Below, piece by piece: positions 13,097-62,880 of a DNA stretch of 64,000 nt; within the stretch, counting starts at the first letter, position 1; each line of letters opens with the position of its first letter. The notes beneath the pieces were generated by a model. That model saw only the letters and a list, made by a program, of their open reading frames with translations. It was not told the DNA's origin and did not search any database. The stretch covers positions 143,840,001 to 143,904,000 of the forward strand of contig OX597817.1 of assembly GCA_951406725.2 (NCBI GenBank), in the 5' to 3' direction. This DNA comes from Octopus vulgaris. Lineage: Eukaryota. A program made the position numbers and the translations under genes.

Positions 13097-13699
13097 TAAA
13101 TAAGGATAATATCAATATTATCAAGTGGCCAGCATGGGAAAAATACCGTATAAAGGTAATAATTTTTTTTTACAACTAAAAATAAGGGTGTCTGAGAGAC
13201 ACCACCATGCCGAAATAGCAGTCAAAACCTTGACTTTAAAAACCACGTTAAATATATTTAAAAACCACGTTATCGATATTTAAATATCGATATTATCCTT
13301 ATTTATAAATTTATATAATTCGTCACTATATTCACTGCGGTGTTTATTTTGACCATATCGTGCTTATGAGGTATTTTGGCGGGCAATTTAACTGGCCTTG
13401 TGTATACGTGCATATATATGTATGTATGGACGTTCGTATATGTAAGTGTAACGTTTGTTCTGCATATATATATCTGCATTTATGTACTTTGATATATTCA
13501 ACTGATGACGGTAAAGCTTATTTAAAGCAAAACCAGAAATCCTGGATCTTGAATTATTCAATATTTTTTGCAAGTCTATTTTGTCCCTCTGTCTTATCTC
13601 ATGGTACGATATGAACATTTAACGTGGTTTTTAAAGTCAAGGTTTTGACTGCTATTTCGGCATGGTGGTGTCTCTCAGACACCCTTATTTTTAGTTGTA
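13097..13699. mobile_element. (AT)n-flanked inverted-repeat element with hammerhead in spacer
   Basis: Perfect 83-bp arms 13171-13253 / 13617-13699; tail 13097-13170; AT dinucleotide tracts at both ends. Confidence 0.7.
13496..13554 (+). ncRNA. Type I hammerhead ribozyme
   Basis: Stem I ATTCAA/TTGAAT; CTGATGA (13502-08); stem II GGT..GCTT/AAGC..ACC (C.A mismatch at base); GAAA; near-palindromic stem III ATCCTGGAT; ATC triplet, cleavage after C13548. Confidence 0.75.
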
Positions 13700-16234
13700 T
13701 ATATATATATATATATATATATATATATATATACATATACTTCTAATATAAGGATAAAATTCTATCAGTGGCCAGCATATTAAAATACCTTTCACGGTGA
13801 AAATATAAACAATTACAAATAAGACCAAACAAAAACATTCTATATCAATATCCTTAAAAATAGTCTTTAGATAATCTAACCCCATACCATTCGCTATTGC
13901 CGAACTATTTAAAAAATTTCTGTTAGCTCGCTTTCCTCGTTTCAGCACGCTGTGTATTTATCGTGAAAGATATTGTATGGGGTTAGACGATCTAAGGTCT
14001 ATTTTTCAGCATACTGGCATAGAAACGTTTTTTCTTTTATCATTATTTATAATTGTTTATATATATATATATATATATATAAAAGAGTTCCTTCATGTAT
14101 CATTCTATAAAACATGTAGAATATACAGTACAATACAAGAGAAAAGGATTAGGAGTGTATAAAGTCATAATGACGGAAATAGTTTGATGAAATTTTATTT
14201 AGCAATAAGAAAATTCAATTATCGTGACAAATTGTTTCGTAACTTAAAAACATGTATATAATTTATATTATTATATTTAATAACAAATAAATTACTTACA
14301 AGCCTCCATTAATGCAAAATGCAAAAATCTTTCAATATAATGCAGAATTTAAGCTACGTTCTCATGTGCATATACATATACAAAGGATATTTGTGTACAT
14401 GTGTGTGTGTGTGTGTGTGTGTAACCGCATATATACTGGAATGTATTTGTCCTGAGACAACTAGTCTCCTACAACGGATATGAACTTACGACCCAGAAGC
14501 TGATAGCCTAGCCACCTTCAGTGATAAACTGGCATTAATATAATCTACATAGATTGATTACACTTTATAATCATATGAAAGATAATATAGTTAGAGCTAT
14601 TAATCAATCCAGATTGACAAATTTACTGCGGTTATATCGGAGCAGCTTTTATATGAGATTCATGAAATGAAATATAAGAATAAACAATTTTCCTGTATAA
14701 ATAAAGACGAACAAAGCAGCAGATGATATGCTAAACGCAATGGTTGTATTTGATTAAGTAACGAGTAACAAACCTGGGAACTTATCAGTATGATGACATT
14801 TGCGTAGAGAGAACATTCATCAAATGAGAACACACTGCCATTACCGGGAGGGATTAAGAAGTTTGCCTCGCAATTATGTGCTTCCCGTTTCGTTCCTATT
14901 GCGTGCCAGTGCTATAGTATTGAATGATGGACACACACACACACACACACACACACACACACACACACACATTACTGAACTAACAGAATATTAACTTTAA
15001 TTAATGGAGAATCAGCTAATTATAAATCAAGAGAATAACTTAATGAAAACCGTAGTTTAGCGAAGTTTTAGCCATCACAGGAGAGGTCACTACTTTGATA
15101 GAGAGGAGCTAGAAGGAAATTTAGCTTCTATTTCTAGCAAATCTTGTAACTGTGTAAAGGCTCTTTTAGTGCTTTGTGATATGAATGAGGATGATTCTGA
15201 TATGATACTAAGCAATAATATCATGGTTTATTGTATTTCAAATCCTCTGTCAGATACAACTAACAGCTATGAAACCATGGCTACCATGTTTCAAACCTTC
15301 CTGACGAAACTGGTATGGTAGGTGTCTCTGATATTTCGAGTGAACTTTGCTAAACTACAGTTTACAAGTTCTGTAATAATTAATCGAAGCACTTGTAGCT
15401 TGCTTACCAACCACATGATTCCGGGTTCAGTCCCACTGCGGGGCACCTTGGGCAAGTGTCTACTACTATAGCCTCAGGCCGACCAAAGCCTTGTGAGTGG
15501 ATTTGGTAGACGGAAACTGAAAGAAGCCCGTCGTATATATATATATATATATATATATATATATATATATATATATATATATATATATATATATATATGT
15601 GTGTGTGTGTGTGTGTGTGTATATATGTTTGTGTGTCTGTGTTTGTCACCCAACATCGCTTGACAACCGATGCTGGTGTGTTTACGTACCCGTAACTTAG
15701 CGGTTAACCAAAGAGACCGATAGAATAAGTACTAGACCTACAAAGAATAAGTCCTGGGGTCGATTTGTTCGACTAAAGGTGGTGCTCCAGCATGGCCGCA
15801 GTCAAATGACTGAAACAAGTAAAAGAGTAAGTGAGTAATTAAGTAATGCCTAAACGTAGATATCTTCTGAATAATATAACACTGTAAATGTCTTTTTTTT
15901 TATATGAATAAGGTTGGTCGCTGTTCTTTTACACATGTTTTGCTTGGGTCAGATATCATATTGGTGCCTATTATCCGTCGGTACAAAGCTTGTTCTACCA
16001 CCACTAGTCTTGATGCAGAAGGTTGTTAAGTTTATTGGCATTGTTGGAATGGAAATGTTTTAAACTGTTCTTTTCTTGCGACATCACTCTGGTAAGCACC
16101 TTCGTTGATCGACCGGTTGTTGTCCTCCACCCCACACTTTACACTTCTTAGTTGTTGGTAATTTTCATTAAAAATTTTATTTGTTGATGATTTGTTGATT
16201 AATCAACATGTAATTGCTCGCTTGTTTATTTGGC

Positions 16235-16355
16235 TGCCTGATGAGTTGAGAGTCGCGCACCATATTACGTAAAGTTGTGGATGATGTTCACCACACTGCA
16301 TACCTAACTGTACCATGTTTACGTCACAATAAAGACTCTTGGAACAATTGTAGCA
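16235..16355 (+). ncRNA. Degenerate hammerhead ribozyme
   Basis: TGC CTGATGA ... long stem II (AGAGTC/GACTCT, ACGTAAA/TTTACGT) ... GGAAC aatt GTA GCA. GAAA is mutated to GGAA; stem I is only 3 bp. Confidence 0.5.
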
Positions 16356-17187
16356 ATATCAAATAACCCATTGGTTTGCTTTTATCATTTATAATGCTTC
16401 CCACAAAAAGAGATGATTAATGATGGAAGCAGGGCTCCGAAGAGAACAATGTGAAAATAAACAGACAACACAAGTCATAAACAAAGCAAAAATGTGACGT
16501 ATAAACATGTATAAACAAAATTTTAGAACTTGTTCAAACAACTAAACGTCAAAATGTTTGTCTAGCACAACGTTTCTCAACCGTAATACTTGGGGTTCCG
16601 CAAGAGGTTCCTAGGGGTTCTGTAGACGGTTCTTAGGGGTTCGGTAAAAGGTTCCTAGAGGTTCCGCGAGAAAGAGTGAGATAAGTTAATTTCATGATCG
16701 TAATATTACTATACATGCACATTATATATGCATATACATTATATATATATATATATATATAATCACACACACAGACATACATATATATATATATATATAT
16801 ATATATATATATATATATATATATATATATATTCAACAATTGAGGGTAAAATTAATTAATTAATTATTAATCAATTTCACCAAGTGTTCAGTATGTAAAG
16901 GGACCATTTAAGGCGAATTCAAATTATTACATTATATAAAAGGGCTTAGTAAAATAAATTACTTTGCCACATACTGAACTCATTAGAAATAGCAGCTAAA
17001 AAAAACTTTTTTAAAACTATTTCTAATACTTAAAGAAAATCTCTCTCATATAGTGCTTGCTCAATTCAACTCACGAAATTTACCCCCAATTTATATATAT
17101 ATATATATATATATATATATATATATATATATATATATATATATATATATATATATATATATATATATATATATATATATATATATA

Positions 17188-17568
17188 GGCGCAGGAGTGG
17201 CTGTGTTGTAAATAGCTTGCTTACCAACCACATGGTTCCGGGTTCAGTCCCACGGCGTGGCACCTTGGGCGAGTGTCTTCTATTATAGCCTCGGGCCAAC
17301 CAAAGCCTTGTAAGTGGATCTGGTAGACTGAAAGAAGCCCGTCGTATATATGTATATGTATATATGTGTGTGTGTGCTTGTTTTTGTGTGACTGTGTTTG
17401 ACAACCGATGCTGGTGTCTTTACGTCCCCGTAACTTAGCGGTTCGGCAAAAGAAGCCGATAGAATAAGTATTAGGCTTACAAAGAATAAGTCCTGGGGTC
17501 GATGTGCTCGACTAAAGGCGGTGCTCCAGCATGGCCATAGTCAAATGACTGAAACAAGTAAATGAGTA
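17188..17568 (+). mobile_element. tRNA-derived SINE family A (CORE-like, internal microsatellite), representative copy
   Basis: Head ggcgcaggagtggctgtg..ggttcagtccc (A/B boxes), caccttgggc(a/g)agt core, internal (TA)/(TG). Other copies near 190-420+1460-1610(-), 2775-2890(-), 7752-8150, 15400-15830, 28510-29275, 31111-31470, 45921-46315, 50270-50620, 54980-55650(-), 62930-63232(-), 63726-64000. Confidence 0.85.
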
Positions 17569-61519: not shown

Positions 61520-61972
61520 ATCTCCATCTTTAATCACAGTGTTGCCTTTAATAAAAACAAATGGAATTCACAAGAAAATTTAAAACAACAAATTTATATT
61601 TAGGATTTAGATTCAGTCTGTCTCAACAAATTTCATCTAACTCATGCAAGCATGGAAAAATGGACATAAAATGATTATGATGAATGTTCTTCTTAATTTA
61701 TTCTTCACTCTGGTGAAGCTCCATGTTTCAGATCAGTTTTATTACTAAATATGATAAATATTTTAACATAACAATGGCAATACCATACAACATTGGAGGC
61801 AGAAACAGCCGTTAGATGGGATGCAGGTTATTTGTATTGAATTAATAAATAATAATGTAAGTCAATTGTTGTTCATTGATATTTCTCCATTTTCTGTCTT
61901 TTTTTTTTTATTTATATACAAGACAGGATCGCCCATGTCAAATTCACATATATATATGTATGTGTGTACATA

Positions 61973-62190
61973 TAAGGTGGTGCTGAAAAGTTCCTGATTT
62001 TAAGGGTATTCCGAAAGGCCTGGCTGGAGGCTCAACGTTCCGAGTTCTTTTACAGGGCTTAGTAAAAACTGAAGGACCACTGCAATGAGTGTGTGAATCT
62101 GAGGGGGGAACATGTTGAATAAAATCATAATTAACTGATTATCTTCTATTTTCTTTAGAACAAAACCAGGAACTTTTTAGCACCTCCTTG
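61973..62190. mobile_element. Mariner-type MITE
   Basis: TA-flanked TIRs taaggtggtgctgaaaagttcctg / caggaactttttagcacctccttg. Confidence 0.72.
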
Positions 62191-62468
62191 TATATATATA
62201 TATATATGTGCCGGTGGCACATAAAATACACCAATCCGACAGTGGCCGTTGCCAGCCTCGCCTGGCACCTGCGCAGGTGGCACGTAAAAAGCACCCACTA
62301 CACTCACGGAGTGGTTGGCGTTAGGAAGGGCATCCAGCTGTAGAAACATTGCCAGATAAGACTGGAGCCTGGTGCAGCCTTCTGGCTTCCCAGATCCCCG
62401 GTCGAACCGTCCAACCCATGCTAGCATGGAGAACGGACGTTAAACGATGATGATGATATATATATATA

Positions 62469-62880
62469 TACAAAATTAAGAGGAATGACCACTAAAGTGG
62501 ACTCCTAATATGCTAAATATAAATGTCAAATCACCATTACCACAAAGGGTGTCTTCTCAAGAAAAAATTTCAGAAAAATGCCAAAATGTAAAAATAAGCA
62601 AAACAAATGAAAATATACAAAATAAAAAACATATTTCATATATTTTCATTTGTTTTGCTTATTTTTACATTTTGGCATTTTGCTGAAATTTTTTCTTAAG
62701 AACACACTCTTTGTGGTAATGGTGATTTGACATCTATATTTAGCATATTACGAGTCCACTTTAGTGGTCATTCCTCTTGATTTTGTATGTAATATGATTT
62801 TAAATCTTCGGATTTTTTAAGATATGCTAAGCCACTGGTTTTAATTGATTAATATCAATTTCTATCCTCATTATTTAATT
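62469..62880. mobile_element. (AT)n-flanked foldback element, no hammerhead seen
   Basis: Arms about 62469-62616 / 62640-62787; tail 62788-62880 resembles the tails at 13097-13170 and 13740-13800 (agtggc.agcat motif in reverse complement). Confidence 0.65.

What the first reader, a model, noticed from the sequence alone, without database searches (positions are those of the whole stretch)
13097..62880. Recurrent ORF-less, (AT)n-embedded foldback elements carrying hammerhead ribozymes
Seen: at least six loci (13097-13699, 17785-18194, 46742-46974, 47328-47529, 47552-49570, 62469-62880) share one architecture despite mostly unrelated primary sequence. One strand reads arm -> unique tail -> microsatellite; an inverted copy of the arm lacks the tail and runs directly into (AT)n. 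Five of the six carry a type I hammerhead, always oriented toward the flanking microsatellite. Established: Penelope-like retroelements have pseudo-LTRs with minimal type I hammerheads, form inverted partial pLTRs with a one-sided tail, and some clades insert in microsatellites. Inference: this is a diverse set of microsatellite-targeting ribozyme retroelements, either truncated PLE ends or non-autonomous retrozyme-like units. No RT or GIY-YIG ORF is visible in the window. The density in 64 kb suggests very many copies genome-wide. I cannot tell whether these families are already catalogued.
Basis: partly seen in the sequence, partly recalled or inferred. Interest (0 to 1): 0.9.

Follow-up and report, generated by a model that had tools for sequence, protein, structure and literature searches.

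The report
Penelope retroelement ends in AT repeats
The six hairpin-shaped repeats are cut-short ends of Penelope-like jumping genes (four match protein-coding parent elements in the same genome; two form tandem units with no parent found) that sit in AT repeats and carry predicted self-cleaving RNAs, which is a known design, and one family likely makes thousands of tiny copies from a promoter placed just before its ribozyme.

Summary
Five loci carry type I hammerheads (6 descriptor hits against 0.125 in shuffles). All six families are multicopy and have two fixed 3' ends that run into (AT)n.

They are Penelope-like elements (PLEs). Loci 2, 3 and 4 are 3' ends of Hydra-type elements and locus 5 of a Neptune-type element; RT and/or GIY-YIG frames lie upstream in other copies. 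Loci 1 and 6 belong to ORF-less tandem units of about 490 and 520 nt (retrozyme-like). The inverted arm, one-sided tail, hammerhead and (TA)n target are all published, including an octopus Hydra element and an in vitro two-start-site mechanism.

One detail was not found in print. In family 4 (3,592 exact tail matches), 42 of 100 copies begin within -8..-4 of the ribozyme core, 32 exactly on the first base of stem I. A TATA-like box lies 29 nt upstream, most junctions lacking microhomology carry an extra G, and no copy starts at the cleavage site. This points to capped, uncleaved short transcripts as templates (inferred, untested). Tails are 56-112 nt outside Neptune, longer than the published 30-40. 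A sample suggests about 100,000 such hammerheads genome-wide.

The parts
13096..13262 (-). Family 1: tail (about 13096-13172) plus inverted arm
13270..13699 (+). Family 1: end of a preceding unit, head-to-tail junction near 13307, then most of the 488-nt ORF-less unit, ending at the arm end and running into (TA)n 13698-13739
13496..13554 (+). Type I hammerhead, family 1 (palindromic stem III, GAUC-type site)
17785..18048 (-). Family 2: tail (about 107 nt) plus arm; 3' end of a Hydra-type PLE; this arm's core is broken
   Evidence: 89-90% to L272 and L143, which carry the Hydra-type endonuclease upstream
18048..18194 (+). Family 2: inverted tail-less arm with hammerhead 18070-18161 (long stem II)
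46738..46820 (-). Family 3: tail (about 58 nt) plus very short inverted arm
46823..46980 (+). Family 3: arm with hammerhead 46853-46945; 3' end of an old, decayed Hydra-type PLE
   Evidence: 78% to L055, which has Hydra-type RT and endonuclease remnants upstream
47328..47460 (-). Family 4: tail (about 70 nt) plus arm; 3' end of a young Hydra-type PLE; 5' end carries a short stutter
   Evidence: 94% to L332
47466..47533 (+). Family 4: tail-less arm that starts on the first base of hammerhead stem I (47466; inferred transcription start); hammerhead 47466-47516
47552..49320 (-). Family 5: 1.77 kb of the 3' UTR of a Neptune-type PLE, with a microsatellite-like stretch, 44-bp repeats, U3-A8 hammerhead 47632-47676 and a 35-40 nt tail
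   Evidence: 87.6% over 1.74 kb to L118
49308..49572 (+). Family 5: inverted tail-less arm with U3-A8 hammerhead 49483-49527
62465..62630 (-). Family 6: inverted tail-less arm
62632..62885 (+). Family 6: arm plus about 95-nt tail; 3' half of an ORF-less unit of about 520 nt, truncated downstream of its hammerhead

Best explanation
The six loci are 5'-truncated copies of Penelope-like retroelements lying in (AT)n, each likely made when the element's protein cut both strands of the repeat and copied its RNA from two fixed internal start points, giving two head-to-head arms of which one has the tail. SHOWN: four families are 3' ends of elements with PLE frames (three Hydra-type, one Neptune-type); two are ORF-less tandem units; each family has two discrete 3' ends that abut (AT)n; in family 4 the two arms of a copy share subfamily variants while the centres differ from copy to copy, and no copy starts at the cleavage site. 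INFERRED from the published in vitro work on an anole PLE: both strands are nicked and extended, the two 3' ends are the two RT start sites, the two cDNAs are joined at short microhomologies, and uncleaved RNA is the template. INFERRED here (about 0.6): in family 4 a TATA promoter in the terminal repeat starts a capped RNA on the first base of hammerhead stem I, and this short RNA is the template of most short copies, which lack the TATA box and would be dead ends. INFERRED: families 1 and 6 are copied in trans by PLE proteins.
For: Parents: family 5, L119 has a 776-aa open frame (GLKF, DKG, YLDD, CX4CX2C, GIY-YIG) behind an overlapping ORF1, and its 120 best homologs carry RT and PLE-type Pfam domains. 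Family 4: 8 of 20 long copies have a Hydra-type frame upstream, L332 with DKT, YRDD, CxCX5C, CxxC and CxH. Family 2: Hydra-type endonuclease upstream in L141-L143 and L272, and a 1,091-aa frame in a related subfamily, L301. Family 3: remnants in L055, L039, L043 and L048 of 20 loci. Two 3' ends per family, with most ends at (AT)n in families 1, 2 and 5, about half in family 6 and few in old family 3. Family 4, first 100 matches on C1 to the exact tail pattern: 97 tails run into (AT)n, 63 have an adjacent inverted arm, and 62 of those end in (AT)n. Arms agree at loop II in 28 of 29 copies and at N7 in 23 of 23; 35 distinct centres among 42 (on the first 65 copies). 5' ends: 42 of 100 at -8..-4 (32 at -6), only 6 between -9 and -99, 0 at the cleavage site. 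TATA-like box 29 nt upstream in 46 of 46 long-arm matches in the held loci (not all independent), across three subfamilies. The base before -6 is T or C in 29 of 29 templated arms, but G in 8 of 12 junctions classed as lacking microhomology, or 8 of 10 after removing 2 that are mutated templated arms. Mechanism and precedent: PMC11167929, PMC8557442, PMC3287187 for the cap G.
Against: No RNA data: neither cleavage, the start site nor the cap was observed. The start of stem I holds a 4-nt palindrome, and 19 arms form a perfect palindrome there; 10 further G junctions could come from 1-nt microhomology. The same position reads as a YAG splice acceptor, and an intron ending at the 5' end of helix I is published for D. 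virilis Penelope. No such hotspot appears in families 1, 2, 5 or 6 (only family 1 was sampled without bias). No parent was found for families 1 and 6, and 6 of 7 readable family 1 cores have C at position 4. Only family 4's hammerhead folds into something close to the hammerhead shape as its monomer minimum-energy structure; the others do not. Clades were assigned by motifs, not by a tree. No empty insertion site was seen.
Confidence: 0.85

Rival explanations
1. The family 4 pile-up of 5' ends is not a transcription start. RT stalls there, or the two cDNAs catch each other at the 4-nt palindrome in stem I, or the site is a splice acceptor and spliced RNA is copied.
For: 19 arms are perfect palindromes at that site and 4 use a 2-nt overlap. 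A YAG precedes the position in all subfamilies seen. D. virilis Penelope has an intron ending at helix I.
Against: Fixed 29-nt TATA spacing. G at junctions without microhomology, including two clean ones against flank or (TA)n (L228; one place listed). Some non-inverted copies also stop there, and stutters of the terminal 10-15 nt occur. No shared upstream exon sequence appears at the junctions.
Confidence: 0.3
2. Families 1 and 6 are true retrozymes: tandem transcripts self-cleave to monomers, circularise and are copied from circles, rather than being simple linear passengers of PLE proteins.
For: ORF-less head-to-tail units of 488 and about 520 nt with one hammerhead each. This fits published non-LTR retrozymes.
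Against: Arrays seen are at most partial dimers; most copies are short and truncated. Most readable family 1 cores have U4 changed to C. Their ends show the PLE two-start signature. This rival is compatible with the main explanation and differs only in the RNA intermediate.
Confidence: 0.3
3. The hairpins are foldback or MITE-like units copied whole from palindromic master copies.
For: Long, near-perfect inverted arms; a few centre sequences recur.
Against: The ends are asymmetric (tail). There are 35 different centres among 42 copies, and both arms switch subfamily together. Long copies lead into RT frames.
Confidence: 0.04
4. The elements insert at any AT-rich site and the (AT)n runs grew afterwards from their AT-rich ends.
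For: Element ends are themselves AT-rich. No empty site was seen.
Against: 97 of 100 young family 4 tails end on a fixed base followed directly by (AT)n. (TA)n preference is published for Hydra elements.
Confidence: 0.06

Closest known systems
Hydra-clade PLEs, including Hydra-1_Obim of Octopus bimaculoides (PMC8557442 and its supplement)
   Same: C-terminal GIY-YIG with CxCX5C linker, DKT, RW(K/R), CxxC and CxH, no CCHH; type I hammerhead near the 3' end; (TA)n target; families 2, 3 and 4.
   Different: Different families: six short motifs (three protein, three DNA) from families 2, 4 and 5 were not found in the supplement text, though line wraps and cut runs could hide them. 3' UTRs are about 1.3-3.3 kb, tails 58-112 nt, one ORF has a long Asn-rich insert, and family 4 has the pile-up of 5' ends at stem I.
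Neptune-clade PLEs (as described in PMC8557442)
   Same: Family 5: GxKF, DKG, CX2-5CxxC linker, CCHH endonuclease, upstream ORF1 overlapping in another frame, 35-40 nt tail, inverted truncated copy.
   Different: U3-A8 core (a published variant, PMC4209133) and a 3' UTR of about 2.2 kb that is partly microsatellite-like. No tree was built against named Neptune or Nematis proteins.
Non-LTR retrozymes / non-autonomous PLEs (PMC7229834; bioRxiv 10.64898/2026.07.22.740005; MRC1-type elements in PMC8557442)
   Same: Families 1 and 6: ORF-less tandem units with one type I hammerhead each.
   Different: Longer units than the roughly 300-nt average, mostly dispersed and truncated, with PLE-type inverted arms and tails at (AT)n. 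Circular RNA is not shown. The 2026 preprint sampled vertebrates, insects and a coral, no mollusc.
Poseidon element of Anolis in vitro (PMC11167929) and Adineta Penelope (PMC3846280)
   Same: Both strands cut and extended, two internal RT start sites equal the tail, hammerhead cleavage not needed; inverted pLTRs with palindromic junctions; a putative TATA box in the pLTR.
   Different: There the primer site is not homologous to the RNA and the tail is 30-40 nt. Here ends abut (AT)n, tails are longer, and one family's short copies appear to start at a promoter-defined 5' end.

Membership tests
EN+ Penelope-like element | RT plus GIY-YIG endonuclease linked to the 3' repeat | tested here: met
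   Families 4 and 5 in single copies (L332, L119, L118). Family 2: endonuclease in close copies, RT in a related subfamily. Family 3: decayed remnants.
EN+ Penelope-like element | Partial tandem pLTR and adjacent inverted 5'-truncated copy | tested here: met
   L116, L119; 63 of 100 family 4 copies have an adjacent inverted arm.
EN+ Penelope-like element | One-sided tail of 30-40 nt | tested here: inconclusive
   One-sided tail in all six families. Length fits only family 5; the others are about 58-112 nt.
EN+ Penelope-like element | Type I hammerhead in the pLTR | tested here: met
   Descriptor hits far above shuffles.
EN+ Penelope-like element | Hammerhead self-cleavage activity | not testable with these tools
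   Needs transcription assays.
Hydra clade (families 2, 3, 4) | CxCX5C linker, DKT, RWK-type motif, CxxC and CxH, no CCHH | tested here: met
   L301 has all (RWR). L332 has all but RWK, its 5' part being truncated. Family 3 shows only the linker and endonuclease remnants. Sequences resemble by eye the Hydra alignment in the supplement.
Hydra clade (families 2, 3, 4) | Insertion in (TA)n | tested here: met
   Family 4: 97 of 100. Family 2: 39 of 43 ends in the two main classes. Family 3 (old): 4 of 15.
Hydra clade (families 2, 3, 4) | RT phylogeny inside the clade | not tested
   No named reference proteins were held as sequences.
Neptune clade (family 5) | C-terminal endonuclease with CCHH and CX2-5CxxC linker; GxKF and DKG | tested here: met
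   L119.
Neptune clade (family 5) | RT phylogeny separating it from Nematis | not tested
   No tree built.
Non-LTR retrozyme (families 1, 6) | ORF-less tandem unit with a type I hammerhead | tested here: met
   Head-to-tail junctions in L001, L005, L009, L015, L348, L355 (family 1) and L099, L109, L111, L112 (family 6). None of 30 unbiased family 1 loci runs into a PLE frame in the sense direction.
Non-LTR retrozyme (families 1, 6) | [quoted passage not shown] | tested here: inconclusive
   L005/L014 has two cores 489 nt apart, both changed at position 3 or 4. No complete dimer with two canonical cores was seen in the loci read.
Non-LTR retrozyme (families 1, 6) | Expressed linear and circular monomers | not testable with these tools
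   Only assembled contigs were available.

The most novel reading that the evidence does not exclude
A Hydra-type PLE starts capped transcription on the first base of its hammerhead. Its 3' repeat therefore emits a 137-nt ribozyme RNA that the element's RT copies uncleaved from both strands of a cut (AT)n, filling the genome with thousands of promoterless 200-nt hairpins. This would be a genomic record of the PLE start site, of cap copying and of two-strand priming in vivo, and would place the ribozyme where cleavage removes the cap of the element's own mRNA.
Probability: 0.55. Interest if true: 0.6.

Novelty: new member of a known kind. Interest (0 to 1): 0.4.

Why it matters
Their value is as a large, young natural data set for a poorly understood mechanism. 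Family 4 gives in vivo counts that fit the one in vitro study (two start sites, both strands, uncleaved template). It also gives a precise, testable promoter position and a candidate role for the hammerhead: cutting about 45 nt behind the cap. On a small sample the genome holds on the order of 100,000 such hammerheads. Many sit in long hairpins, which would be double-stranded RNA where transcribed (inference); the recent octopus repeat annotation I searched does not mention ribozymes. Tails of 56-112 nt extend the published range.

Tried and rejected
Rfam scan: no hammerhead family among the listed matches, only sub-threshold miRNA hits from hairpins. Pfam did not recognise the Hydra-type proteins and gave RT just under cut-off for L119.

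Sequencing runs: no RNA holder on record. Laying four contig sets on locus 1 showed the family in three coded organisms, but no start, end, circle or empty site; this is no evidence on expression.

An early idea that family 4 is a minimal autonomous-free element came from a biased query and was rejected when unbiased copies led to a Hydra-type frame. An early idea that the cleaved 3' product is the template was rejected (0 of 100 copies).

No 5' hotspot at the hammerhead in families 1, 2, 5 or 6. No parent for families 1 and 6 among the 50 loci fetched around Hydra-type endonuclease hits or the 30 unbiased family 1 loci. Three tblastn hits there (L357, L372, L373) were flanking or opposite-strand. 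First-look candidate counts of the DNA searches are not copy numbers (161 for family 4 against 3,592 exact matches). Target-site duplications cannot be read inside (AT)n.

Earlier scan notes held nothing. Repbase and Dfam could not be searched, so whether these families are catalogued is open.
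Full report
Setting. The window is G000:C4:143840001-143904000 in a 2.8-Gb genome of 227 contigs. I take it to be an octopus from genome size, contig sizes and repeat content; that is my inference and no call names the organism.

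Check of the observation. Masking microsatellites and comparing the window with its reverse strand finds inverted arms at loci 1, 2, 4, 5 and 6. Each has one end 0-1 nt from (AT)n and the other 40-107 nt away. Locus 3 has the tail but an inverted arm of only about 20 nt. A type I hammerhead descriptor finds 5 motifs against 0.075 in 40 shuffles, and 6 against 0.125 once a longer loop III is allowed, which adds locus 4. Locus 6 is truncated downstream of its hammerhead; 6 of 20 family loci show the core. No PLE frame lies in the window or 10 kb either side.

Abundance. All six arms are multicopy. Exact patterns give 3,592 matches for the family 4 tail and 356 for the family 1 tail, with 0 for the reversed controls. 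In 57 fixed-position 10-kb stretches (570 kb) the descriptor found 23 motifs against 0-2 in 8 shuffles, which extrapolates to roughly 100,000 in the genome; the sample is small. Of these, 18 of 22 measurable have (AT)5 within 250 nt downstream, against 7 of 19 upstream and a background of 17.8%. Twenty of 110 inverted pairs in that sample show the one-sided-tail layout; a few are weak or overlapping, and most tails are 56-106 nt.

What each family is. Family 5 (locus 5) is the 3' UTR of a young Neptune-type element. L119 holds a 776-aa open frame with GLKF, DKG, YLDD, CX4CX2C and a CCHH GIY-YIG domain, behind an overlapping ORF1 that begins just after the tail of an upstream partial repeat. 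The window copy is 87.6% like L118 over 1.74 kb. Family 2 (locus 2) leads about 1.3 kb upstream into a Hydra-type endonuclease. That protein has 13,644 first-look candidates, 150 of them scored, and a related subfamily keeps a 1,091-aa frame with RWR, DKT, YRDD, CxCX5C, CxxC and CxH (L301). Family 3 (locus 3) is old (70-83% between copies); 4 of 20 loci have Hydra-type remnants upstream. Family 4 (locus 4) is the end of a young Hydra-type element with a 3' UTR of about 3.3 kb, largely degenerate microsatellite. Eight of 20 long copies carry the frame upstream, and L332 is 94% like the window copy. Families 1 and 6 are head-to-tail units of 488 and about 520 nt without a frame. In 30 family 1 loci taken in genome order none continues into a PLE frame in the sense direction, and 6 of 7 readable cores have C in place of U4. 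Their helper is unknown. L145 joins a family 1-like unit, through a 5-nt overlap, to the middle of a Neptune-type ORF1; this is one case of possible template switching, or of a later deletion.

How it works. Every family has two discrete 3' ends: the tail end and a point about 32-40 (family 5), 56-64 (3), 68-70 (4), 88-96 (1, 6) or 112 (2) nt inside it. In the first 100 family 4 matches on C1, 97 tails run into (AT)n, 63 have an adjacent inverted arm, and 62 of those arms end in (AT)n. On the first 65 of these, the two arms agree at loop II in 28 of 29 readable copies and at N7 in 23 of 23, although several subfamilies are mixed, and 35 of 42 centres are distinct. The hairpins are therefore rebuilt at each insertion rather than inherited. 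PMC11167929 (main text read, parts 1-2 of 4) shows for an anole PLE that the protein cuts and extends both strands of AT-rich DNA, starts at two internal RNA sites separated by the tail, and does not need hammerhead cleavage. Applying this here is inference, but it predicts the layout seen, and no family 4 copy starts at the cleavage site (0 of 100).

The detail not found in print. Family 4 5' ends pile up on the hammerhead's 5' edge: 42 of 100 at -8..-4 relative to C3 (32 at -6, the first base of stem I), 25 inside the core, 5 beyond the cleavage site, only 6 between -9 and -99, and 22 at -100 or further. The window's plus arm starts on that base (47466). A TATA-like box begins 29 nt upstream in 46 of 46 long-arm matches in the held loci (not all independent), in three diverged subfamilies. 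The templated base at -7 is T or C (29 of 29). It is G in 8 of 12 junctions classed as lacking microhomology, two of which are really mutated templated arms; 10 more G junctions are ambiguous, 19 arms form a perfect palindrome and 4 use a 2-nt overlap. An untemplated 5' G is the published mark of a copied cap in L1 and SVA insertions (PMC3287187, passages). The simplest reading is a polymerase II start on stem I, so that the 3' repeat emits a capped 137-nt RNA which is copied uncleaved. Against it: the site holds a 4-nt palindrome that could capture two cDNAs, and it also reads as a splice acceptor, as published for D. virilis Penelope (PMC4209133, passages). The other families show no such hotspot, and no RNA data could be had. 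I put it at about 0.55-0.6.

What is known. PMC8557442 (passages, section 11 and supplement searches) describes partial tandem pLTRs, the inverted truncated copy, the 30-40 bp one-sided tail, hammerheads, (TA)n insertion and non-autonomous tandem PLEs. It lists Hydra-1_Obim from an octopus with a hammerhead and (TA)n target. PMC3846280 (passages) reports palindromic inverted junctions and a putative TATA box in a pLTR. PMC4209133 reports the U3-A8 core and oppositely oriented hammerhead pairs. PMC7229834 (passages) and bioRxiv 10.64898/2026.07.22.740005 (parts 1-3 of 5; supplements closed) cover retrozymes as non-autonomous PLE derivatives. PMC13282606 (part 1 of 3 and a term search) counts 31 recently active Penelope-like families in O. 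vulgaris without mentioning ribozymes; its library, which I did not see, may already hold these families. Ten searches found no report of a start site on stem I, of cap-derived G in PLE copies, or of tails this long. The library lacks most subscription papers, and Repbase and Dfam were not searchable.

Verdict. The features are real, abundant and explained: new families of known PLE clades plus two retrozyme-like units. The promoter and cap signature in family 4 is a modest but testable addition. Interest 0.4.

Noticed in passing
window 56716-56994 and 58489-58797, minus strand: Exons of a host dual-specificity phosphatase gene (Pfam DSPc, E 3e-19 for the first). Locus 6 lies about 4 kb upstream of the second in the gene's direction.
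   Followed up: partly
window 13745-14130, 46990-47255, 17590-17715, 12976-13090: Further repeat ends beside the same (AT)n runs. Each has relatives in the 570-kb sample; 17590-17715 is a family 2-related tail. They are probably more PLE ends, so the runs collect several insertions.
   Followed up: partly
L145:3424-7240: A family 1-like unit joined within hammerhead stem III, through a 5-nt overlap, to the middle of a decayed Neptune-type ORF1-RT-endonuclease; possible template switch.
   Followed up: partly
L119:3952-4009, minus strand: ORF1 and the RT frame of family 5 overlap across a T-run that fits a -1 frameshift heptamer (pattern recalled).
   Followed up: no
L301:1400-4672: Hydra-type frame of 1,091 aa with a long Asn-rich insert between RT and endonuclease, like the inserts described in Adineta Penelope.
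   Followed up: no
L225, L232, L326-L345; window 48300-49300: The 3' UTRs of families 4 and 5 contain 1-3 kb of degenerate GT/AT microsatellite that is copied with the element, so part of the genome's simple-repeat DNA travels with PLEs.
   Followed up: partly
window 13096-13135, 13745-13790, 62825-62880: The tails of families 1 and 6 and the 13745 element share a short motif by eye near their 3' ends, although BLAST finds no similarity between the family references; possibly a common helper-recognition site.
   Followed up: no
window 8381-8732, 20446-20997, 25203-25572, 40161-40559, 51913-52349: An abundant SINE-like repeat, often as 184-bp tandem dimers.
   Followed up: no
L343:876-2564, minus strand: A 563-aa C2H2 zinc-finger array near a long family 4 copy.
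   Followed up: no
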